A stretch of DNA of 64,000 nt from Mobula hypostoma (lineage: Eukaryota). The position numbers and the translations under genes are program-made. Shown piece by piece: positions 1,900-60,135 of this stretch (the first letter of the stretch is position 1; every line of letters begins with the position of its first letter). Under the pieces are notes generated by a model that had not been told where the DNA came from, searched no databases, and saw only the letters and a list, made by a program, of their open reading frames with translations. The stretch lies in contig NC_086108.1 of NCBI RefSeq assembly GCF_963921235.1, forward strand, positions 11,160,001 to 11,224,000, given 5' to 3'.

Positions 1900-2135
1900 A
1901 ACATGAGAAAGTCTGCAGATGCTGGAAATCCAAAGCAACACACACCAAATGCTAGAGGAAATCAGCAGGTCAGGTAATATCTGTGGAAATGAGTAAACAG
2001 TTGACGTTTCGGGCCAAGATCCTTCTTCAGGACTGAAAAGAAAGGGGAAATCAAAAGATGGGTGGAGTGGAAAAAGGCTAGCAAGAAGGTGAAAGATAAA
2101 ACCAGGCCATTTGGAAAGGTCAAGAGCTGGAGAAG
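1900..2135 (-). mobile_element. Penelope-like element terminal repeat (pLTR) fragment, family A
   Basis: Reverse complement of the 'cctgctgagttcctccagcattttgtgtgtgttgc..tttccagcatctgcag' block that follows the GIY-YIG region at 9.8-10.5 kb. Confidence 0.75.
1998..2035 (-). ncRNA. Minimal type-I hammerhead ribozyme motif (PLE family A)
   Basis: Minus strand reads CAGTC-CTGAAGA-AGGATCTTGGCCC-GAAAC-GTC-AACTG: CUGANGA and GAAA core boxes, stem II, NUH=GUC, stem I CAGT/ACTG. Confidence 0.65.
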
Positions 2136-9519: not shown

Positions 9520-10475
9520 TCCATTTCCTGAACATTCACCTCACCCCATCTTCCTGCCACCTTAACAGTGATAGAGTTCCTCTTGTCCTTACCTACCACC
9601 CGCTCGGCCTCCACAACCAAAGCATTATCCTCCGCAGCCTCTGCCATCTCCAAAGGGAAGGTACAATCAAACAGATACTTAACTCTCCCATCTCTTTATT
9701 TTCCACAGGGATCGCTCCCTTCTTGATCCCCTCTTACATTCATCTTTCCCCATTAACCTCTCCCCTGGCACTTATCCCTCCAACTGGCCAAAGTGCTACA
9801 CCTGCCCATTCACCTCCATTCAGAGCCCCAAACAGTCCTTCCAGGTGAGGCAACCCTTCACTAGCAAACCTACTGGGGTCATCGATTGTGTCCGGCGCTT
9901 TCGATGCAGTCTCTACATCGGTGAGACCCATCGACAACTGGGGGCACCACTTCGTCAGGCATCTCCACTCCATCCGCTACAAGTAGGACTTTCCGGTTGC
10001 CAAATTCTGATTCCCACTCCTGTTCCAGCATGTGGGCCCATGGCTTCCTTTTGCCCCAAGATGAGGTGACCCTTAGGGAGGAGGAGAAAAACCTATATTC
10101 CGTCTGGGTAGCCTCCAAACTGATGGTATGAATTTCAATTTCTCCTTCCAGTAAACTAATTTACCCCCTTCCCCACCTCTTTCTCTGTTCCTCACTCTGA
10201 CCTTTTACCTCTTCTTACCTGCCTATCACCTCCTCCTTCCCTTTCTTCCCTTCCACTCTCCTATCCTATCAGATTCCTCCTTATCCAGCTCTTGACCTTT
10301 CCCACCCACCCGTCTTGACCTATCACCTTCTAGCTCTCCTCCTTCCCCTCCTCCTGACTTTTTATTCTGGCATTTACTCCCTTCCTTCTCATTTCTGAAG
10401 AAGGGTCTTGGCCCGAAGTCCTTCATTCATTTCCATAGGTGCTGAGTTCCTCCAGCATTTTGTGTGTGTTGCTTG
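9520..10475 (+). mobile_element. Penelope-like retroelement: GIY-YIG endonuclease remnant plus pLTR
   Basis: ORF 9845 RQPFT..TGVIDCVRRFRC.LYIGETHRQLG (VIY...C..YIGET GIY-YIG signature), then a pyrimidine-rich tract and pLTR with a degenerate hammerhead core at ~10395-10418. Confidence 0.8.
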
Positions 10476-17109: not shown

Positions 17110-18690
17110 GCTTACAATGTCACCCAGCTTCTCAGTGAACTTCAAAGTATATTTATTATCAAAATACATACATGTCACCATGAGATTCATTTTCTTGCCA
17201 GCATACTGAATAAACTTATTGAATAACAACCATAACAGAATCAATGAAAAACCGCCCAATATGGGTGTTTAACCAGTGTGCAAAAGACAACAAACTGCAA
17301 ATACAAAACAAAGAAACAATAATAATAAATAAATGAACACTAAATATCAAGAACATGAGATGAAGAGTCCTTGAAAGTGAGTCCATTGGTTATGGAAACA
17401 TTTCAATGATGGGGCAAGTGAAGTTGAGTGAAGTTATACAGTCATAGAGTTATAGAAACATAGAAACATAGAAAATAGGTGCAGGAGTAGGCCATTCGGC
17501 CCTTCGAGCCTGCACCGCCATTTATTATGATCATGGCTGATCATCCTACTCAGAAGCCAGCCTTCCCTCCATACCCCCTGACCCCTGTAGCCACAAGGGC
17601 CATATCTAACTTCCTTTTAAACATAGCTAATGAACTGGCCTCAACAGTTTGCTGTGGCAGAGAATTCCACAGATTCACCACTCTCTGTGTGAAGAAGTTT
17701 TTCCTAACCTCGGTCCTAAAAGGCTTCCCCTCTATCCTCAAACTGTGACCCCTCGTTCTAGACCTCCCCAACATCGGGAACAATCTTCCCGCATCTAGCC
17801 TGTCCAATCCCTTTAGGATCTTATACGTTTCAATCAGATCCCCCCTCAATCTTCTAAATTCCAACGAGTACAAGCCCAGTTCATCCAGTCTTTCTTCATA
17901 TGAAAGTCCTGCCATCCCAGGAATCAATCTGGTGAACCTTCTTTGTACTCCCTCTATGGCAAAGATGTCTTTCCTCAGATTAGGGGACCAAAACTGCACA
18001 CAATACTCCAGGTGTGGTCTCACCAAGGCCATCCAGTCTGTACTGAGCCATTTAAACTGCTTACTCCCATTAATCTGCACCAGGACCATCGCCTGCCATA
18101 CCCCTACCACCCATATCCCTTTTTGTTCAAATGCCTGATGATTGTTCCTGAACCTGGTGGTGTGAGTCCTGAGGCCTCTGTAGCTGCTACCTGATGTTAT
18201 CAATGAGAAGTGATCGTGTCCCGGGTGGTAGGGGCAGGGCATGCTTACTGATGATGGATGCTGCTTTCTTGCGACACTGTTTCATGTAGATGTGTTCAAT
18301 GGTCGGCAGGAATTTACCCACGATTTACTGGGCCGAATCCACTACTTGTTGTGTGTTGCTTGAATTTCCAGCATCTGCAGAATTCCTGTTGTTTGCGTTT
18401 AAATCCACTACTTGTTGTGTGACTTTCCATTCAAGGGCAGCGTTTCCATACATGCTGTGTTGCAGCCAGTCTCCACTGCACATCTATAGAAGTTAGTTAA
18501 TGTTTTAGATGCCATACCAAATATCTGCAAACTCCTGAGGAAGTAGATGCACTGCCTTCTTTCTTCACAATTGCTTTTACGTGTTGGGCCCAGAACAAGT
18601 CCTCGGAAATAGTAACACCCAGGAATTTGATGTTGCTAATCCTCTCCACTTCTGATCCTCCAATGAGGACTGGCTCATGGACCTCCGGTT
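17110..18690 (-). mobile_element. Rex1/Babar 3' region interrupted by nested CR1 insertions (17440-18118)
   Basis: Rex1 3'UTR at 17110-17440 continues at ~18118 into the ORF end (RGLRTHTTRFRN). Confidence 0.7.
17452..18030 (-). mobile_element. Young CR1 LINE 3' end
   Basis: Uninterrupted ALVRPHLEYCVQFWSP...RRLRGDLIETYKIL...FFTQRVVNLWNSLP; (TTTCTATG)n tail; near identical to 38400-38985. Confidence 0.95.
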
Positions 18691-20229: not shown

Positions 20230-21360
20230 AACTATGTAGGGCAATGAGGACTATGGTGGAACAAAGGGGTCTGGGAATACTAGTCCGTAATTCATTGACA
20301 GTCATGTCACAGATAGATAGGGTCATGAAGGAAGTTGTTAGCATGTTGACCTTCATAAATCCAAGCACTGAGTACAGGAAACACGAACAAAATGATGGAG
20401 GAACTCAGCAGGCCAGGCGGCATCTATGGAAAAGAGTACAGTCGACGTTTCAGGCCAAGACCCTACTCCAGCATTTTGTGCGTGTTGCTTGGATTTCCAT
20501 CATCTGCAGATTTTCTCCTGTTTGTTATAGGACTACTACACTATGAAGTCTCTTTCAGGGATCTCCACCCTGAAGAAGTTTAAATCTTCCCTTCAGTCCT
20601 GATGAAGGGTCATGGCCTGAAACATTGATTATACTCTCCTCCATAATGCTCCCTGGCCTGCTGAGTTCCTGCAGCATTTTGTGTGTGTTGCTTGGATTTC
20701 TTTTATTTGGTAATGAGTACAGGAGGGGGAATGTTCTGCTGAAGTTGTGTAAGAGATTGGTAAGGTCTAACAGAGTATTCTGTGCAGTTTTGGTCACCTA
20801 TCTGCAAGAAAGATATAAATCAGTTTGAAGGAATACAGAAAAAATTTACAAGGATGTTGCCGGGTCTGGAGGACCTGAGTTATAAAGATAGATCAAGTAG
20901 GTTAGAATTAGATTGAATAGGAAAAATTGAACATGATTGAACTGTATTCTTCAGAATGTAGAAAAATTGAGGGGAGGTTTGATAGAGGTACACAAAATTA
21001 TGATGGGGTATAGACAGGGTAAATGTAGGCAGGCTTCTTCTGCCGAGGTTGGGTGGGACTACAACTAGAGGTCATGGGTTAAGGGTGAAAGGTGAAAAGT
21101 TCAAGGAAACATGAGGGGAAACATCTTCAGTCAGAGGGTGATGAGAGTGTGAACTAACTGCCAGTAGAAGTGGGGCATGCCAGCTCGATTTCAACATTTA
21201 GGAGAAGTTTGGATAGATACATGGATGGTAGAGGTATGGAGGGCAATAGTCTTGCTGCAAGTCCAATGGAGTAGTCAGTTTAACTGGTTCAGCATGGATT
21301 AGATGGGTTGAATGGCCTTTTCTGTGCTGTATTTTTCTATGACTATGAATCTATGATTCC
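20230..21360 (+). mobile_element. CR1 LINE 3' part with PLE pLTR insertions at ~20380-20700
   Basis: CR1 RT C-terminal motifs on either side of pLTR blocks; one block carries CTGATGA...GAAAC at 20599-20623. Confidence 0.75.
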
Positions 21361-21879
21361 AGGACTCTATGAACTGGCTGCCTATATTTTGGGATCCTGC
21401 CATGCAGTGGAGCACATCTGGATGTTGTAGAACTGAAGGCAGAGGGATTGAGTGATCTGGACAGAGGGTGGAAGCGGAGGGAGTAGTGAGCTGGAGAGAG
21501 GGTGGGGTAAGAGGGAGTAGAGACAACTTCCCTCTGAGATGGCAGAAGCCGGGGAAGTGTGGAGAGCCTGTGGAGCGGATGCAGGCTTTAAATTTTATTC
21601 CACGGTAGATGAGTTAGATTAGTACAAATTGTCAGGTCACTTCATTTTCGAAAGGAACTGGAGATGTAATAAGGTGGTAAATGACAGGAAATAGATGGGA
21701 TTTTGCAGTGGCTGCTAACTGTCTTTTCACATGCAAAGGTTATTAATTTGTGTGAAAAATGAGCTGCAAAAATATTCAGGCCGGGAGATTAAAAATAACC
21801 CAAGATGCAGAGAGCAGCAGAATAGAATGGTTTTGGGAATAACTTAGAAGATGTGTAGCTGGGGTGGCTGATGGCTGGG

Positions 21880-22050
21880 TTGAGTTGTTCTCCGATCTTA
21901 GCAACATACGAGCAAACGTTTCATCACCATGTGGGAAGACATCGTCAGTGCTCTGTTGATTGTGCTGTGTCCTCCGAATGCTTGGAGCTGACTGGTCGTC
22001 ATTTTGGAAACTCAATAGTGATGTAGGGAGGAAATCTAGTTGTATGATGA
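21880..22050 (-). mobile_element. Penelope-like element terminal fragment, family B
   Basis: Shares 'gacatcgtcagtg' and flanking sequence with 59030-59170 and 24750-24830; the latter lies next to a GIY-YIG remnant at 25095-25295. Confidence 0.7.
21910..21953 (-). ncRNA. Minimal type-I hammerhead ribozyme motif (PLE family B), best-preserved copy
   Basis: Minus strand reads GAGCA-CTGACGA-TGTCTTCCCACATGGTGAT-GAAAC-GTT-TGCTC: perfect 5-bp stem I (GAGCA/TGCTC), CUGACGA and GAAA boxes, palindromic AAACGTTT stem III, NUH=GUU. Confidence 0.75.
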
Positions 22051-23049
22051 AGTTCGTGCTCTTGCTTGCATGGTGGGGGTCGGGGCGGGGGGAGGTTGGT
22101 GTTTCTGCTGATGAACGTGGGGAGAAGGAGAAGGTTGATGCATTTGCTACTGCCTATGCATGGGAGGGGGCGGATTTCAGGGTTTGAGTGTTTCTATCAT
22201 TCATTCTATGGGGTTTCTTGTTTCGTGGATGTCTGTGAAGAGTAAGAACTTCAGGTCGTATACTGTATGCATACTCTGATATTAAATGTACCATTAAAAT
22301 GTACCTTTGAATCTTTGTTTCGTCACATTTTACTGAGCAGAACAGCAGAATCTGTCAATGGCAGGGAGGGCCAGTGATGCACACAGTCTGGGCTTTAATC
22401 TGTGCTTCTGAGGGAGATCAGCGGACAGACACCTTCCCGGACTTTAAGCCCGCTCTGTGCAGAATGGTCTGGATGTTGTGTGGGCAGATGTTCACATTAC
22501 CAAGCCCAGCTCCCAGATTAGTACTCGTGTGACCAGCAGACACAGGCACTAACATGGTTTCCAACTACATCAACTTGAACAGAACCATACCCTGAGCTCT
22601 CTGTATTTAATTCCGGGTCTCATTATTTTTCTTCACGCTCAATTAGTCAGGGAATGAGAACTGATTCCTGTGCAATTAGCTACTTGTTTACCACACGCTG
22701 TAAATGAGGTGATGAAATTGTTTGGCTCGGTGAGTAAGTGCCTCATTGGTCAACAGGTTGGATCCAGGGAGCCCGTTACCACCCTTGGTATCTGTCAGGA
22801 CTAGTGGGTGACGTTGACACGAGCACCCATCTCAGAGGCAGAGAGGGAGGACGAGAGGTCCCTGTGACGGTAATGCACCATTAAGCTGGGTGCCAACCGC
22901 TGTAAAACAGGACGGAGAGGAAGAAGAAGAGGACGAGAGGCAGTCACCCATCTTGAGAACTGGCCCTGTGGACTCCATGGGCTCCTCCTTTTTCCTGTCA
23001 TATCCACTGAGATTGCTGACCCAGGCCTCTCTCCCCAGTCAAATCCCCT

Positions 23050-24660: not shown

Positions 24661-25094
24661 TATATGTTAGCATCAGAAACACTCAATCCATGTTCACAAA
24701 GACAAATTGAACAATGAATTCTTGTAATTTGTTTGTAGGGTTGTTCACCAAGGTCTGGAGGCTAGATCGCAAATGTTTTGTTATCAGTTGAGGTGACATC
24801 ATCAAAGCACAATTGAGTGTTGTTTCTATATTGATCCAACTTATGGTTCTGATCGACCAGCTGTCACATTGACCACTAGTCTCCGCTGGATCCTGGCCCA
24901 CCAGATAGCTGAGTGATCTCTGCTGGCCTGTATCCCTGGTTATTGGTCATTGCGAGTGTTGGTTCCTTGGGTGTCCACAGCTCATCCCCTCAGATCCGAA
25001 CCTACAGAATTACAATGTTCATGAATTGGATTCAGTTCAATATACTTGTGAATAGAGTCTTCCCTTAAGAACCAAACTTCTAAGATTCTCTTGA

Positions 25095-25295
25095 TTACTT
25101 GTTTCGTGCTTCATCCAGGATATTTGTAGTTTCCCAAACACACTTGTGTCCTTCTGGGTCTTTGTGTGCTGAGATGAGCGACAGCGGATTGTGCCTTCTC
25201 ATGGCCAGCTGATGTTCATATAGTCTCATGGGTAGTTTTCTCCTCATCTGTCCTACATAGAGTTTGGAGCAGTCTCCATATTGGATTTGGTATTC
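25095..25295 (-). mobile_element. Penelope-like GIY-YIG endonuclease remnant
   Basis: YQIQYGDCSKLYVGQMRRKLPMRLYEHQLA...SLISAH (YxI.C.DC...YVGQT.R.L..R..EH signature). Confidence 0.8.
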
Positions 25296-25299
25296 CATG

Positions 25300-25840
25300 T
25301 TCGTTACAGAGAACATAGAACAAAGACCAGTACAGCACAGGAACAGGCCATTCGGCCCTGAAAAGCAAATCAAAAACACTAATCCCTCCTACCTACACCA
25401 CGTCCACATCTCTCCTCCTTATATCTATGCACCTATCCAAACATCTCTTAAAAGTCTCTACCACCTTACCAGGTAGCACATTCCTAGTATCCACCACTCT
25501 CTGAATAAAAAACTTACCCCTCACATCCCCCTTGAACCTACCCTCTCTCATCTTCAATGCATGCCCTCTGGTATTAGACATTTCAACCCTGGGAGACAGT
25601 GAGTCCCTGTCTACTCTATCAGTGCCTCTCATAATCTTGTAAACTTCTATCAGATATCCCCACAGTCTCCGACTCTTCGGTAAAAAACAACCCAAGTTTA
25701 TCCAGCCTTTTGTGATAGCACGAGCCCTCTAAACCAGGCAGCATCCTGGTGAACCTCTTCTGCACCATCTCCGAAGCCTCAACGTCCGTCCTATGAGGGG
25801 GGCCACCAGAACACTTCACAATACAATGCTCCAGATGAGG
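25300..25840 (-). mobile_element. CR1 LINE 3' fragment
   Basis: VQKRFTRMLPGLE; YLIEVYKIMRG; RGKFFIQRVV. Confidence 0.85.
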
Positions 25841-38104: not shown

Positions 38105-38985
38105 GGCTCAGGTGACTTGGATAGGTTGGGTGAGTGGGCAAACTCATGGCAGATGCAATTTAATGTGGATAAATGTGAAGTTATCCACTTTGGTGGCAAA
38201 AATAGGAAAACAGATTATTATCTGAATGGTGGCCGATTAGGAAAAGGGGAGGTGCAACGAGACCTGGGTGTCATTATACACCAGTCATTGAAAGTGGGCA
38301 TGCAGGTACAGCAGGCGGTGAAAAAGGTGAATGGTATGCTGGCATTTATAGCGAGAGGATTCGAGTACAGGAGCAGGGAGGTACTACTGCAGTTGTACAA
38401 GGCCTTGGTGAGACCACACCTGGAGTATTGTGTGCAGTTTTGGTCCCCTAATCTGAGGAAAGACATCTTTGCCATAGAGGGAGTACAAAGAAGGTTCACC
38501 AGATTGATTCCTGGGATGGCAGGACTTTCATATGAAGAAAGACTGGATGAACTGGGCTTGTACTCGTTGGAATTTAGAAGATTGAGGGGGGATCTGATTG
38601 AAACGTATAAGATCCTAAAGGGATTGGACAGGCTAGATGCAGGAAGATTGTTCCCGATGTTGGGGAAGTCCAGAACGAGGGGTCACAGTTTGAGGATAAA
38701 GGGGAAGCCTTTTAGGACCGAGATTAGGAAAAACTTCTTCACACAGAGAGTGGTGAATCTGTGGAATTCTCTGCCACAGGAAACAGTTGAGGCCAGTTCA
38801 TTGGCTATGTTTAAGAGGGAGTTAGATATGGCCCTTGTGGCTACGGGGGTCAGGGGGTATGGAGGGAAGGCTGGGGCGGGGTTCTGAGTTGGATGATCAG
38901 CCATGATCATAATAAATGGCGGTGCAGGCTCGAAGGGCCGAATGGCCTACTCCTGCACCTATTTTCTATGTTTCTATGTTTCTAT
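38105..38985 (+). mobile_element. Young CR1 LINE 3' end
   Basis: Open 266-aa frame DLDRLGEWANSWQMQFNVDKCEVIHFG...LVRPHLEYCVQFWSP...; 3' hairpin and (TTTCTATG)n tail. Confidence 0.95.
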
Positions 38986-39251
38986 ATTCTGATTCAGATT
39001 GAGAATGCCACTTTAGAAGAGTTTCTGGGACCGCTGATGGATGGCTGCACGCCTGTGGTACATTGTACACCCCGAGTCCATTAATGAGAATTATACACCA
39101 CATTACACCAAACTGTCAGAGAAACAGCCATTAAGTGACCTTCACCAGCCTTAGGATAGCATGTGGCATTGTTACCCCACTCCCCCAAACACTGCGCACA
39201 ACTTAGCCAATTCACCCTCTTAAAGCCACTGTTAGGTCTTTCTGAGAACTA

Positions 39252-43614: not shown

Positions 43615-46345
43615 CAGAACCAGTACGGGAGCAACACAGGGATGTGTGTTTAGCCCCTTGCTCTACTCGTTTTACACTAATGTCTGCACAGATCCGATAT
43701 CATATCAAAGTTTGTTGATGACACCACTGTCTGGGCCAAATCAAAGGTGGTGATGGATCAGCATACAGGAGGGAGGTTGAAAATGTGGCTGAGTGGTGTC
43801 ATAACAACAAGCTCTCTCTCAATGTCAGCAAGACCAAGGAAATGATTGTAGAGTTCTGGAGAGGGAAACCAGAGGTCCACAAGGCATTCTTCAATTATGT
43901 GAAGAAAAAAAGGATGACAGGAGTGAAGGTAGGACCGATTAGAGATAAAGGTGGGAAGATGTGCCTGGAGACTGTGGAAGTGAGCGAGGTCCTCAATGAA
44001 TACTTCTCTTCGGTATTCACCAATGAGAGGGAACTTGATGATGGTGAGGACAATATGAGTGAGGTTGATGTTCTGGAGCATGTTGATATTAAGGGAGAGG
44101 AGGTGTTGGAGTTGTTAAAATACATTAGGACAGATAAGTCCCCGGGGCCTGACGGAATATTCCCCAGGCTGCTCCACGAGGCGAGAGAAGAGATTACTGA
44201 GCCTCTGGCTAGGATCTTTATGTACTCGTTGTCCACGGGAATGGTACCGGAGGATTGGAGGGAGGCGAATGTTGTTCCCTTGTTCAAAAAAGGTAGTAGG
44301 GATAGTTCGGGTAATTATAGACCAGTGAGCCTAACGTCTGTGGTGGGAAAGCTGTTGGAAAAGATTCTTAGAGATAGGATCTATAGGCATTTAGAGAATC
44401 ATGGTCTGATCAGGGACAGTCAGCATGGCTTTGTGAAGGGCAGATCATGTCTAACAAGCCTGATAGAGTTCTTTGAGGAGGTGGCCAGGCACATAGATGA
44501 GGGTAGTGCAGTGGATGTGATCTATATGGATTTTAGGAAGGCATTTGACAAGGTTCCACACGGTAGGCTTATTCAGAAAGTTAGAAGGCATGGGATCCAG
44601 GGAAGTTTGGCCAGGTAGATTCAGAATTGGTTTGCCTGCAGAAGGCAGAGGGTGGTGGTGGAGGGAGTACATTCAGATTGGAGGATTGTGACTAGTGGTG
44701 TCCCACAAGGATCTGTTCTGGGACCTCTACTTTTCGTGATTTTTATTAACGACCTGGATGTGGGGGTAGAAGGGTGGGTTGACAAGTTTGCAGATGACAC
44801 AAAGGTTGGTAGTGTTGTAGATAGTGTAGAGGATTGTCAAAGATTGCAGAGAGACATTGATAGAATGCAGAAGTAGGCTGAGAAGTGGCAGATGGAGTTC
44901 AACCCGGAGAAGTGTGAGGTGGTACACTTTGGAAGGACAAACTCCAAGGCAGAGTACAAAGTAAATGGCAGGATACTTGGTAGTGTGGAGGAGCAGAGGG
45001 ATCTCGGGGTACATGTCCACAGATCCCTGAAAGTTGCCTCACAGGTGGATAGGGTAGTTAAGAAAGTTTATGGGATGTTAGCTTTCATAAGTCGAGGGAT
45101 AGAGTTTAAGAGTCGCGATGTAATGATGCAGCTATATAAAACTCTGGTTAGGCCACACTTGGAGTACTGTGTCCAGTTCTGGTCACCTCACTATAGGAAG
45201 GATGTGGAAGCATTGGAAAGGGTACAGAGGAGATTTACCAGGATGCTGCCTGGTTTTGAACGTATGCATTATGATCAGAGATTAAGGGAGCTAGGGCTTT
45301 ACTCTTTGGAGAGAAGGAGGATGAGGAGACATGATAGGGGTGTACAAGATAATAAGAGGAATAGATAGAGTGGATAGCCAGCGCCTCTTCCCCAGGGCAC
45401 CACTGCTCAACACAAGAGGACATGGCTTTAAGGTAAGGGGTGGAAAGTTCAAAGGGGATATTAGAGGAAGGTTTTTTACTCAGAGAGTGGTTGGTGTGTG
45501 GAATGCACTGCCTGAGTCAGTGGTGGAGGCAGATACACTAGTGAAGTTTAAGAGACGACTAGACAGGTATATGGAGGAATCTAAGGTGGGGGCTTATATG
45601 GGAGGCAGGGTTTGAGGGTCAGCACAACATTGTGGGCCGAAGGGCCTGTACTGTGCTGTACTATTCTATGTTCTATGTTCTATGTACTCTACTTCCTTAC
45701 GAGTCTGCGGAAATTCAGCACGACATCAAAAACTTTAGACAGGTTTCTCCAGATGTGTAGTGGAGAATATATTGACTGGCTGCATCACAGCCTGGTATGG
45801 AAACACCAATACTTTTGCATGGAAAATGCTACAGAAAGTAGTTGATTTGGCTCAGTCCATCACAAGCAAAGTCTTTCCAACCATTGAGCACATCTACATG
45901 AAGCATAATCGCAGGAAAGCAGCATCCATCATCAGGGAACCCCATCACCCAGGACGTGCTCTCTTCTCACTGCTGCCATCAGGTAGAAGGTACAAGATCC
46001 TCAGGACTCACACCATCAGGTTCAGGAACAGTTACTACCCCTCAACCATCAGGCTCTGGAATAAATGGAGATAACTACTCTCACTTGCCCCATCATTGAG
46101 ATGTTCTCACGAACAAACATCTCACTTTAAGGACTCTTTATCTCATTATCTCATGTTCTTGTTATTTATTGCTATTTATTTATATTTGCATTTGCACAGT
46201 TTGTTGTCTTCTGCACTCTGGTTGATCTTTCATTGATCCTGTTATGGTTACTATTCTATAGATTTGCTGAGTATGCCCGCAGGAAAATGAATCTCAAGGG
46301 TGTATGTTGAGACATACATGTACTTCAATAATAAAATTTACTTTG
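43615..46345 (+). mobile_element. Rex1/Babar fragment (43615-43878 and 45686-46345) split by a CR1 insertion
   Basis: STGATQGCVFSPLLYS...EWCHNNKLSLNVSKTKEMIVEF, then CR1, then ENILTGCITAWYGN...RFRNSYYPSTIRL. Confidence 0.85.
43879..45686 (+). mobile_element. CR1 LINE, 5'-truncated, RT domain to 3' tail
   Basis: [59 protein letters not shown]; few stops; (TTCTATG)n tail. Confidence 0.95.
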
Positions 46346-49640: not shown

Positions 49641-49964
49641 CCCAGATGAGTCCTGATGAATGGTCTTGGCCCAAAACATTGACTGCTCATTTCTCTATAG
49701 TTGCTGCCTGACCTACTGAGTTCATTCAACATACACTGTGTTCTGCAGAGTTACCAGACTATATTCAAAGTATTAAATTGGTGATTGTAGCAATTGAAGC
49801 TGTAATTAAGCACTCATTTGTTATTTTTGTGTAGAGAAGTATGAAATATTTTTATTTTATTGTATTTATTTAGAGATAAAGTACTGTAACAGGCCTTCCA
49901 GCCCAATGAGACTTCTGGCCCAGAGTAAGCAAATAGCATTCAGAACAGAAGTGAGTCCATAGGC

Positions 49965-54872: not shown

Positions 54873-55460
54873 TATCGAGGGATAGAGTTTAAGAGTTGCA
54901 GGGTAATGATGCAGCTCTATAAAACTCTGGTTAGGCCACACTTGGAGTACTGTGTTCAGTTCTGGTCGCCTCACTATAGGAAGGATATGGAAGCATTGGA
55001 AAGGGTACAGAGGAGATTTACCAGGATGCTTCCTGGTTTAGAGAGTATGGATTATGATCAGAGATTAAGGGAGCTAGGGCTTTACTATTTGGAGAGAAGG
55101 AGGGTGAGAGGAGACATGATAGGGGTGTACAAGATAATAAGAGGAATAGTTAGAGTGGATAGCCAGTGCCTCTTCCTCAGGGCACCACTGCTCAAGGCAA
55201 GAGGACATGGCTTTAAGGTAAGGGGTGGGAAGTTCAAGGGGGATATTAGAGGAAGGTTTCTTACTCAGAGAGTGGTTGGTGCGTGGAATGCACTGCCTGA
55301 GTCAGTGGTGGAGGCAGATACACTAGTGAAGTTTAAGAGACTACTAGACAGGTATATGGAGGAATCTAAGGTGGGGGTTATATGGGAGGCAGGGTTTAAG
55401 GGTCAGCAATACATTGTGGGCTGAAGGGCCTGTACTGTACTGCACTGTTCTATGTTTTTA
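54873..55460 (+). mobile_element. CR1 3' end, same subfamily as 43879-45686
   Basis: ORF 54906-55424 is nearly identical to the protein encoded at 45120-45615. Confidence 0.93.
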
Positions 55461-56139: not shown

Positions 56140-56470
56140 GGCGGGAGACCTCCAGGAGGACCACAACCTTGTCGCTGGGATTGGAGGCTTGCGTGCTTCA
56201 ATGACCCGGAAAGAGAAGTCTGCTGGAGTCAGGGGCTTGTGCTTTGACTCTTGTAGGTCACCCATGCCAAACAGATCAAAGGGGAAAGGCCTTTGAGGGG
56301 TCCACTGGTCCTCCAGGTCAGAGGGTTCAGCTCAGGGTTAACAACGTTGACTGGTCAAACACAATTGTCGCAGAAGGAGCAATAAGGAATCCGTCCATAT
56401 CTGAGTGCAATGGTATGGACAGACAGAGATGGAGCACGTTTATTACTGCCCTAAGTGCCAGGAAGTAAGT
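56140..56470 (+). mobile_element. RTE-related non-autonomous element nested in a CR1 3' end; antisense sister fragment at ~59450-59695
   Basis: Shared 'ctggagtcagg...gtcacccatgc.aaacag.tcaaag' block; 3' DRQRWSTFITAL and (AAGT)n tail. Confidence 0.6.
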
Positions 56471-58138: not shown

Positions 58139-59029
58139 TTGAGTGTGTGCCCTCAGGCCTCTGCACCTCCTTCCTGATGGTTACAATGAGAACAGTCGTG
58201 ACCTGGATGATGGGGGGGTGGGGGGGTGGGGGGGGGTGTCCTTAAAGATGGATGTCGCCTTTTTGAGGCATCGCTCCTTGAAGATGTCCTATACTCGCAG
58301 GTTAAAAGGTCTATTTCATTCAAGGGCAGACGCCTGATGCCGCGTGTTATCCGTGCAGAGGACCAGACAGGTATTATTTCATTTTTGTCACCGCTCAAAC
58401 TGCAGAAATTGTCGTGGGGCCAGTTGATCACAGAGACGCTGCAACCGTGGAGGTTCGAGCACTAGCTGTACCACAAATCACAAAGAGAATTATTGCAGAA
58501 GTATCGATTAATCCTGAGCAATAGAGATGGAACATATGGTTGTGACCCATCCCTCTCCTCTGAGCTGCTCTGTGTGTTGTCCAGCAGAGCCCTTGGGAGA
58601 TGGAGGAATTGATTCCAAAGATTCCTTGCCTGCTTATGTGTGCTGACTGCAAACCTCAGCTACATTGGCCTTCGTCAGTCAGGCACCACCTGGATGAAAA
58701 ATACTAATCGATTCAACTGTGACAGGGGAAAAATATACTGCCCATCACCAAATAACCCTGCGCTGCGAGGTCACTGATCTTGTTGCGAGGTCAGTTTAAA
58801 TCCAGCCACATTACTTTCATATACAACTTCTGAGATAATGTGTGGAGTGCCCTGCCGGGGGGGTGGTAGAGGCAGCTAGGTATAGGACATTTAAGAAACT
58901 CCTGGATAGGCATGAGGGTGATGGAAAAAGTGAAGGTTATGGGAGAGGGAAGCATTAGATTGATTTTACTCACTGCTCATTACATTTCTGCTTGTCCACA
59001 GAAAGATTCTTCATTCCTGGCAATCCATT

Positions 59030-59450
59030 TACAGACATTTAATCGCCATGTGAGGAGACATCGTCAGTGTGTTGTTAATTGTAGTGTGTCCTCCGTGTGC
59101 TTGGCCTTTGTATACGTATCCATCAGCTGATTGGGCGTCATTACGGAAACTCAGTTGTGATGCGGGGAGGAAATCCCGTTGCCGATTGGTTGTATGGCAA
59201 ACTTCAAGTCTTGTGGTTTGGAAGTTTGCCCGCATTGCCTCATAAGTAAGATTGAGGTGTAAGTGTCTGTTTACAAAATTGTCTGAGGAAAATCTGGCGT
59301 CTGGGAATTCTCTTGCATACCGTCTGTTTGCTTGTGCCATGACTTTCACTGATGCCCATCGAATTTGTGCCCCTCTCACTCTTCATGGGTAGAGACCAGG
59401 GAGAGTTGGTCATGTCACTTTACAGCCAGTTGATTCTCCATTGTTGCTTC
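59030..59450 (-). mobile_element. Penelope-like fragment, family B
   Basis: QANRRYAREF..ARFS...NRHL.L...YE C-terminal motif, followed by a degenerate hammerhead (CTGACGATGTCTCC...). Confidence 0.65.
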
Positions 59451-60135
59451 TGTGACAGTCCTGTTTGATCAGCCTGGCTTGTTAGCCCTGAGCTTAAACT
59501 CCACCCTCCTCCCACCCCCACGATCTTGGAGGAGAAGTGGGCCACTCTTAGTCCTTTACTCTTTGACCTGTTTAGCATGGGTGACCCTACCGAGAGTTAA
59601 AGCGTAAAGACCCTGACTCCAGCCAGCATAGCTCTCTGGGTCACTGAGGCACGTGACCCTCCAAACCCATCATCAAAGTTATGGTCTTCTTGGAGGAGAT
59701 TGATCTCAGAGGAGCTTGTAAGGTCAGCATAACATTATGGGCCGAGGGGCCTGTATTCTACGCCCTGTTCACCCCTTAGCCTCCTCCACTCCAGGGGAAA
59801 CAAACTCTCCATTTTCTACATAAAACTGAAATGTCCATCCAGACAACATCCAGGTTTATTTTTTTACAGAGAGTAGTGAGGGTGTGGAACTGGTGGAGGC
59901 AAAATTCAAAGTTCAAAGTAAATTTTATTAACAAAGTACACATGTCACTATATGAAACCTGAGATTCACTTACTTGTGGGCATACTCAATAAATCTGTAG
60001 AATGATAACCACAACAGAATCAATGGAAGACCAATGAACTAGAACATTCAATCAGATTGCAGAAGACAACAAATTGTGTAAACGCTAAAAGAAGAAACAA
60101 TAATAATAAATAAATAAATAAATAAATAGATAAAC

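What the first reader, a model, noticed from the sequence alone, without database searches (positions are those of the whole stretch)
21910..21953. Near-intact minimal hammerhead ribozyme in a Penelope terminal fragment (family B)
Seen: the minus strand reads GAGCA-CUGACGA-U-GUC(UUCCCACAUGGU)GAU-GAAAC-GUU/UGCUC. It has a perfect stem I, both catalytic boxes, one extra nt before stem II and a palindromic AAACGUUU where stem III should be. Established: PLEs carry minimal type-I hammerheads with a palindromic, almost absent stem III, which are thought to cleave as dimers. Inference: this copy, or its consensus (GAU>GAC reverses one CpG decay), could self-cleave any minus-strand transcript crossing it. 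Degenerate sisters lie at ~24765-24810 and ~59030-59072.
Basis: partly seen in the sequence, partly recalled or inferred. Interest (0 to 1): 0.72.

Follow-up and report, generated by a model that had tools for sequence, protein, structure and literature searches.

The report
Decayed Penelope-element minimal hammerhead copy
This is a real but aged copy of the small self-cutting "hammerhead" RNA motif that Penelope-like jumping genes are already known to carry; it sits in a dead, shortened copy of such an element and most likely no longer cuts anything.

Summary
The motif is real at 21910-21953 (minus strand); 1 of 1000 shuffled windows gives one. It lies in a ~235-bp, 5'-truncated end of a Penelope/Poseidon (Cercyon-like) element. 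Its ATG overlaps stem II and opens a frame matching the N-terminus of a full RT+GIY-YIG protein. The family ends about 110 nt after that ATG, as in anole PAc. A Clonorchis motif matching 34 of 40 letters is in print. GAU is the family's majority state, not a private CpG decay (GAC 14% of depth). Two of the five stem I pairs are private to this copy. A private change leaves stem II unstable (+0.9 against -3.4 kcal/mol). The copy is 11% diverged, no less in the motif than beside it, is predicted to fold with its core paired up, and both sisters have broken cores. The tested relative PAc cuts only with its protein. Cleavage of passing transcripts is unlikely (about 7%). The scan noted this kind before: 41 notes in this genome fit the words. 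Two untested leads remain: five concerted stem I changes, and closeness to fluke elements.

The parts
21833..22066 (-). 5'-truncated Penelope/Poseidon-type terminal fragment (copy A). The 5' edge is approximate; it lacks 11 nt at 22037/8 and 20 nt at 21985/6 relative to sister C
   Evidence: Loose ends of family contigs at 21833/21834, 21985/21986 and 22037; alignment to C
21910..21953 (-). Minimal type I hammerhead motif
21942..21948 (-). First catalytic box CUGACGA, intact
21923..21940 (-). Stem-loop II: G.U, U-A, C-G, U.U, U.G, C-G and a 6-nt loop. The U at 21936 is private to this copy and destabilises the stem
   Evidence: 91% of X2 depth has the pairing letter at 21936; +0.9 against -3.4 kcal/mol
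21915..21922 (-). Second box GAAA, ACGU dimer palindrome and GUU triplet; predicted cut between 21915 and 21914
   Evidence: numbering by the published descriptor
21902..21958 (-). Stem I of this copy: 5 bp, a 3-nt bulge, 5 bp. Five of its letters (21905, 21906, 21910, 21911, 21952) differ from the family majority, and all make Watson-Crick pairs
21833..21942 (-). Start of the element's ORF: ATG at 21942-21940 overlapping A9, the extra U and G10.1; a stop after 14 codons in this copy
   Evidence: 18 of 42 identities to the N-terminus of P0038, E 1e-05; P0038 has RVT_1 and the endonuclease match at 710-777
21833..21869 (-). Probable 30-40 bp optional 'tail' between two family end points, about +74/80 and +110 from the ATG
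   Evidence: Depth step near 21870 and loose ends at 21863-21872 and 21833-21834; offsets; PAc RT starts at +111 to +118
24765..24812 (-). Sister B, hammerhead relic with a broken core, from a different subfamily
24880..25310 (-). Sister B, decayed GIY-YIG endonuclease end
   Evidence: 272 proteins at E<=0.001, best 1.7e-15; Atlas GIY-YIG clusters at 0.95; tblastn
59025..59072 (-). Sister C, hammerhead relic with a broken second box; closest window relative of copy A
59149..59373 (-). Sister C, decayed GIY-YIG endonuclease end, linking copy A's family to an endonuclease-bearing element
   Evidence: tblastn with P0013, E 3e-13

Best explanation
An old, dead, 5'-truncated insertion of a high-copy Penelope/Poseidon (Cercyon-like) retroelement. 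Reverse transcription began about 110 nt into the ORF on the parent RNA and stopped after about 235 nt, so only the pseudo-LTR end was copied (the ends are shown; the mechanism is inferred from PAc). In the active parent, the motif is a minimal hammerhead overlapping the start codon. Two copies swap stem I arms and pair their ACGU palindromes, probably helped by the element's protein (inferred from the literature, not shown for this family). This copy has drifted neutrally since. Its boxes survive by chance, its stem II is weakened, its monomer locks into a rod, and it has no partner, so it does not cleave host RNA to any meaningful degree.
For: Element identity: ATG frame matches the N-terminus of an RT+GIY-YIG ORF; endonuclease remnants upstream of both sisters; shared family 3' end at +109/110 against +111-118 in PAc; 1303 related contigs in run X2. 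Neutral decay: 13 majority differences in 120 nt, 5 of 44 in the motif against 8 of 76 outside, Fisher p=1.0; the chance of an untouched 15-nt core at that rate is 0.18. Folding: P(first stem II pair) 0.05, P(G8 paired to C15.2) 0.96, open core 5.5 kcal/mol above the ensemble. A dimer with both sites open lies 10.7 kcal/mol above two monomers, against 7.7 for the family majority and 2.9-3.7 for L001/L002. Literature: the S. mansoni monomer is inactive and its dimers weak; PAc shows no cleavage without protein and no RNA-seq ends at the site; 1 of 9 Xenopus retrozyme dimers cleaved.
Against: All core nucleotides are intact, and GUU and G10.1.U11.1 are natural family states. Nearest-neighbour energies ignore Mg2+ and tertiary contacts. 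Measured against the free cofold minimum, copy A (16.7) is no worse than the family majority (16.8). The rod misfold is also predicted for the majority with C11.1 (P 0.8), so it is not unique to this copy. Five stem I changes that all pair are hard to put down to drift (cluster P about 0.004, post hoc). The family letters come from 40 of 68 table rows, depth-weighted, in other organisms and behind an 80% filter.
Confidence: 0.85

Rival explanations
1. One reading: this copy is still a competent ribozyme and cuts minus-strand transcripts, as a homodimer of two transcripts of the locus or with help from a Penelope protein or host chaperone.
For: Intact boxes and palindrome. A homodimer can use all ten stem I pairs across partners. 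PAc is protein-assisted. An earlier scan note (e1-7790562, unchecked) reports one insertion starting at a cleavage site.
Against: Stem II +0.9 kcal/mol and core paired in the monomer. No competent partner in the window. The heterodimer with a majority copy is worse still, 13.5 kcal/mol. The 8-bp palindromic duplex is 3.0 kcal/mol below the 4-bp form and takes up A13, A14 and N17.
Confidence: 0.07
2. Copy A descends from a minor subfamily whose master had a reinforced 10-bp stem I selected at the RNA level, so the five changes are true covariation; the copy itself may still be dead.
For: All five changes create Watson-Crick pairs, and one pair changed on both sides. Keeping the 3-nt bulge argues against a single template switch (inference).
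Against: No such subfamily is seen. At 21911 and 21952 all X1 depth carries other letters; in X2 at most 7% of depth can carry the copy's letter at 21952; the seven longest repeat-only X2 pieces listed differ at 19-24 letters in 110-137. Contigs drop rare variants, so this is weak.
Confidence: 0.2
3. The motif is a chance match, or only a by-product of amino-acid conservation at the ORF start.
For: The motif overlaps coding sequence. It fails the published descriptor as written and has no Rfam hit.
Against: 1 of 1000 shuffles. Across 6 distinct rows 75.8% of cells pair (1 of 500 shuffles; slid controls 27-44%), with 3 pairs changed on both sides, although that count alone is not significant (114 of 500). 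A near-identical motif is published.
Confidence: 0.02

Closest known systems
Clonorchis sinensis min-HHRs (1) and (2), Cervera and De la Pena 2014, PMC4209133, Fig. S3; (1) is typed 'Cercyon, partial' in Table S1
   Same: Counted by eye from the first stem I G to the end of the 3-bp stem (40 nt; the GAAA column was detached in the PDF text and is assumed): copy A matches motif (2) at 34 of 40, the X2 majority at 36 of 40, and the other four letters occur as X2 alternatives at 14-48%. Same GCA/UGC stem I, U.U mismatch, CGUU; motif (1) has the same G.U first pair.
   Different: Other host phylum. Copy A has five private stem I changes and a weakened stem II. I saw no assay of the Clonorchis motifs in the parts read.
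PAc, Poseidon of Anolis carolinensis (Frangieh et al. 2024, PMC11167929)
   Same: ORF starts at stem II; cut site 26 nt after the start codon there, +28 here; element end near +110; optional 30-40 bp tail.
   Different: PAc is full-length, expressed and assayed with its protein. Copy A is a lone ~235-bp relic with an early stop. I did not compare sequences.
Metazoan PLE min-HHR consensus (Xena, Poseidon, Neptune of fishes, coelacanth, Xenopus)
   Same: Type I, extra nucleotide after A9, longer stem II, palindromic 15.2-16.2, NUH.
   Different: The consensus has G10.1-C11.1 and a continuous stem II. No cartilaginous fish is among the 56 motifs of Fig. S3.
Non-LTR retrozymes (bioRxiv 10.64898/2026.07.22.740005)
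   Same: PLE-derived hammerheads, also in the one chondrichthyan sampled.
   Different: Those are tandem arrays of at least two units; copy A is single.

Membership tests
PLE minimal hammerhead (min-HHR) | CUGANGA and GAAA-N-N-U-H boxes in type I order | tested here: met
PLE minimal hammerhead (min-HHR) | One extra nucleotide between 9 and 10.1 | tested here: met
   U at 21941
PLE minimal hammerhead (min-HHR) | Palindromic 15.2-16.2, no stem III | tested here: met
   ACGU at 21919-21916
PLE minimal hammerhead (min-HHR) | Stem I of 3-7 bp | tested here: met
   5 bp in this copy, 3 bp in the family majority
PLE minimal hammerhead (min-HHR) | Published descriptor S7: unbroken stem II of 3-7 bp with a loop of at most 10 nt | tested here: not met
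   Fails on the U.U mismatch (3 bp plus 12 nt) and passes at loop 12. The authors list C. sinensis (2) with the same mismatch as a min-HHR, so this is a search setting and does not exclude the copy from the kind.
PLE minimal hammerhead (min-HHR) | G10.1-C11.1 pair (highly conserved, not universal) | tested here: not met
   G.U here and in the family majority; G.U also in published C. sinensis (1), S. mansoni (1), cichlid, X. tropicalis (1)
PLE minimal hammerhead (min-HHR) | Covariation of stems across copies | tested here: inconclusive
   6 distinct rows of 8: covariation score 0.248 (5 of 500 shuffles), 3 pairs changed on both sides (114 of 500); rows are few, related and partly decayed
PLE minimal hammerhead (min-HHR) | Self-cleavage as a dimer | not testable with these tools
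   Only folding energies
Penelope/Poseidon EN+ PLE | Single ORF with RT and C-terminal GIY-YIG | tested here: met
   Indirect: copy A's ATG frame matches P0038 (RVT_1 at 359-551, endonuclease match at 710-777) and its sisters carry GIY-YIG ends. No RT remnant is attached to copy A.
Penelope/Poseidon EN+ PLE | Hammerhead in the pseudo-LTR overlapping the ORF start; 5' truncation; 30-40 bp tail | tested here: met
Penelope/Poseidon EN+ PLE | Clade placement by RT phylogeny (Poseidon or Cercyon, not Neptune) | tested here: inconclusive
   No RT in the window's copies; a 75-column endonuclease tree left sister B in an open fork
Non-LTR retrozyme | Tandem units with at least two complete hammerheads | tested here: not met
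   Single copy; self-comparison shows no tandem unit

The most novel reading that the evidence does not exclude
The five concerted changes that turn a 3-bp stem I into a 10-bp bulged stem were selected. They mark an undescribed stem-I-reinforced variant of the Penelope minimal hammerhead that cleaves as a locus-specific homodimer, or with a chaperone, and now processes a host transcript, i.e. a domesticated minimal hammerhead in a cartilaginous fish.
Probability: 0.04. Interest if true: 0.6.

Novelty: new member of a known kind. Interest (0 to 1): 0.13.

Why it matters
As it stands it matters little: one more aged copy of a described motif that occurs in thousands per genome. Whether Penelope hammerheads cut in vivo, and what for, is an open question, but this copy is a poor test object; young tandem copies are better. 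It would matter if the copy proved active, because dispersed Penelope relics would then be latent RNA-processing sites in fish genomes. It would also matter if the likeness to liver-fluke elements proved to be horizontal transfer.

Tried and rejected
Rfam scan: no hammerhead family. No whole genome is held, so no genome-wide copy count, alignment or junction census. Pfam on six frames of the sisters' decayed ends: 0 of 6. Word-indexed protein search with sister B's remnant: 1 candidate, none significant. Pattern scan of viral contigs: 0. The metagenome scan gave 5 loci (L001-L005) of another family with no blastn or tblastx hit to the window; used only as folding comparators. Run search: no RNA holder listed. 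The four laid runs are contigs, RNA status is a guess, and no place with many molecule ends was listed, which says nothing on expression or cleavage. Host gene search: of 318 non-repeat frames the 150 longest were scanned; 5 hit Pfam (zf-RVT, Lipase_GDSL_2, RVT_1, ALKBH8_N, HTH_Tnp_Tc3_2), which I read as mobile-element remains from recall. Short exons would be missed, so whether a transcript crosses the site stays open. The bacterial promoter/terminator scan is irrelevant to this host and found 0. The endonuclease tree (43 rows; P0020, P0029, P0042 and hits 46-150 left out) did not resolve fluke against shark affinity. A read-through polyprotein, suggested by P0008/P0009, was set aside: they are Clonorchis gene models, probably spliced, and P0009 continues into unrelated sequence. 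Lunse et al. 2017 could not be read; known only from a review passage. No paper was found giving rates for G10.1.U11.1 (0 papers). That GUU cuts more slowly than GUC is recalled; only lists GUU among active triplets.

Full report
Observation. The minus strand at 21953-21910 reads as described. Numbered as a hammerhead: stem I arms 21953-21949 and 21914-21910, CUGACGA 21948-21942, an extra U at 21941, stem II from 21940 to 21923, GAAA 21922-21919, C15.2-G16.2-U16.1 and N17 = U at 21915. My pattern (both boxes, palindrome, stem I >=4 bp, stem II >=3 bp) finds only this site in 64 kb and hits 1 of 1000 dinucleotide shuffles. My re-implementation of the descriptor printed by Cervera and De la Pena misses it, because a U.U mismatch leaves 3 bp and a 12-nt loop. 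With the loop limit at 12 it is found, and 4 of 500 shuffles hit. Rfam has no hammerhead among 9 weak matches.

The element. Copy A aligns with sister C over 21913-22042 (71%, E 5e-19) and lacks 11 and 20 nt relative to it. Upstream of both sisters lie decayed GIY-YIG ends. B's remnant finds 272 proteins at E<=0.001 and GIY-YIG clusters in the Atlas. Of 12 hits scanned, 9 carry RVT_1 and 8 carry GIY-YIG. These proteins hit C at E 3e-13. In copy A the ATG at 21942 overlaps A9, the extra U and G10.1, and its frame matches the first 43 residues of P0038, an 832-residue RT plus endonuclease ORF (18 of 42 identical, E 1e-05). It also matches Clonorchis gene models at 50-55%, and another frame matches a bamboo-shark protein. 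Laying four runs on 21700-22200 placed 1303, 22, 110 and 44 contigs. Family contigs end at 21833/21834, 109-110 nt after the ATG, with a second step near 21863-21872. This fits anole PAc, where the ORF starts at stem II, the cut lies 26 nt after the start codon, reverse transcription starts at +111 to +118, and an optional 30-40 bp tail exists. So copy A is a lone, 5'-truncated pseudo-LTR end of about 235 bp. The host is probably a cartilaginous fish: this rests on the shark protein match, recalled repeat types and earlier scan notes, and was not tested.

How intact is it? In run X2 the majority letter differs from copy A at 13 of 120 positions: 5 of 44 in the motif and 8 of 76 outside (p=1.0). 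An untouched 15-nt core is expected in 18% of copies at that rate. These figures rest on the 40 of 68 rows shown, weighted by contig depth, from other organisms, behind an 80% filter that favours the copy's own letters. GAC at 21923 holds only 14%, 0%, 9% and 24% of depth in X2, X1, X4 and X3. A true CpG such as 21917/21918 keeps its letters in about 80% of X2 depth. Sister C has GAU too. So GAU is the state of this subfamily, although a GAC subfamily shows among the loose ends (47 contigs). The real lesion is the private U at 21936, where 91% of depth has the pairing letter: stem II evaluates to +0.9 kcal/mol, against -3.4 for the majority and -7.5 for L001. The 'perfect' stem I is also private: 90%, 84% and 93% of X2 depth differ at 21911, 21910 and 21952, and the family stem is 3 bp.

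Would it cut? Predicted as a monomer, the copy forms a rod in which GACG of the first box pairs with CGUU (P 0.96), stem II forms with P 0.05, and the open core lies 5.5 kcal/mol above the ensemble. Restoring C11.1 alone restores stem II (0.81) but leaves the first box paired. In the whole-element context stem I is not formed at all. In a type I dimer the partners must swap stem I arms (inferred from the dimer model). The dimer with both sites open is 10.7 kcal/mol above two monomers for A+A, 13.5 for A with a majority copy, 7.7 for the majority and 2.9-3.7 for L001/L002. Against this, the gap to the free cofold minimum is the same for A and the majority (16.7, 16.8), and such energies ignore Mg2+ and tertiary contacts. 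The 8-nt palindrome is not a point in favour: only ACGU is needed, and the 8-bp duplex is 3.0 kcal/mol more stable and occupies A13, A14 and N17. It is nevertheless a normal family trait. Both sisters have broken cores. Published tests point the same way: no monomer activity and low dimer activity for S. mansoni; no PAc cleavage without protein, no effect of ribozyme mutants on insertion, and no RNA-seq ends at the site; 1 of 9 Xenopus dimers active. I found no host exon (150 of 318 frames scanned) and have no usable expression data. I put cleavage of passing transcripts at about 7%.

Comparison with the known. The kind is described. Supplementary Fig. S3 lists two Clonorchis sinensis motifs with the same stem I, the same CGUU, a G.U first pair in one and the U.U mismatch in the other. 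By eye copy A matches motif (2) at 34 of 40 letters and the X2 majority at 36 of 40, plus 10 of 12 in the 3' flank. No shark or ray is in that alignment (supplementary file 1 could not be searched), but a 2026 preprint reports PLE-derived hammerheads in one chondrichthyan. Structure counts on 6 distinct rows support the fold modestly. The scan has noted this kind repeatedly: 41 of 178 notes in this genome fit the words 'hammerhead Penelope', and notes exist on other genomes. These are unchecked notes and are not counted as support.

Unexplained. (1) Five private changes (21905, 21906, 21910, 21911, 21952) all create Watson-Crick pairs and yield a 5+5 bp stem I around a 3-nt bulge. Four lie within 7 nt (P about 0.004, post hoc). 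A minor subfamily, hairpin-templated mutation or chance could explain it; no such subfamily is visible in the contigs. (2) One X2 contig runs from the unique flank into the element, with 3 listed differences in the 134-nt flank but 32 differences and 27 gap letters overall. (3) The closeness to fluke elements could be horizontal transfer (my guess 15%) or dual constraint by ribozyme and start codons on an old lineage. The endonuclease tree is unresolved. Two searches found no paper on it (0 papers; 2 papers, listing only, neither evidently on this).

Papers seen. PMC4209133: main text parts 1-2 of 4 and supplementary file 2 whole. PMC11167929: parts 1-2 of 4; supplements not opened, and they may hold the PAc alignment. 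PMC6765202, PMC8557442, PMC6155905, PMC3138052: passages. bioRxiv 10.64898/2026.07.22.740005: passages and section 15; its supplements are closed and may list chondrichthyan families. Lunse et al. 2017: not seen, cited through the review.

Verdict. A correct catch of a known kind; 'near-intact' overstates it and activity is unlikely. Interest 0.13; new member of a known kind.

Noticed in passing
window 21902-21958 (-): Five letters private to this copy all create Watson-Crick pairs, turning the family's 3-bp stem I into 5 bp, a 3-nt bulge and 5 bp; cause unknown.
   Followed up: partly
window 21878-21957 and 25098-25310 (-); proteins P0002, P0005, P0006, P0008, P0009, P0011: Six of the seven named proteins among the 14 hits looked up, and the published motif nearest to this family, come from liver flukes (Clonorchis, Opisthorchis); possible horizontal transfer, tree unresolved.
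   Followed up: partly
window 21700-22012, run X2 record 9: A contig joins the unique flank to the element, but the element part seems far more diverged than the flank (3 listed differences in 134 nt; 32 differences and 27 gap letters overall).
   Followed up: no
window 2003-2030 (-), 10395-10422 (+), 20444-20471 (-), 20599-20626 (+), 49653-49680 (+): A second, more abundant hammerhead-like repeat family; all five copies are decayed. The one at 20599 passes the published descriptor but has lost the palindrome.
   Followed up: partly
window 59029-59382 (-): Sister C keeps a 117-codon open frame running from the endonuclease end through the pseudo-LTR into the next start codon in frame. Copy A has a 125-codon open frame (21776-22153) in another phase. 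May be chance.
   Followed up: no
L001-L005: A metagenome assembly holds a minimal hammerhead family with a perfect 6-bp stem II, the same extra U and GUU site, and three near-identical copies; a better candidate for an activity test.
   Followed up: partly
window 56149-56391 and 59432-59696: A 70% inverted match between these two stretches, upstream of sister C's endonuclease remnant; identity not determined.
   Followed up: no
window 17451-18030 with 38401-38986; 45092-45672 with 54875-55456: Young CR1-like LINE ends, 97% and 94% identical; about 47% of the window is repeated within itself.
   Followed up: no
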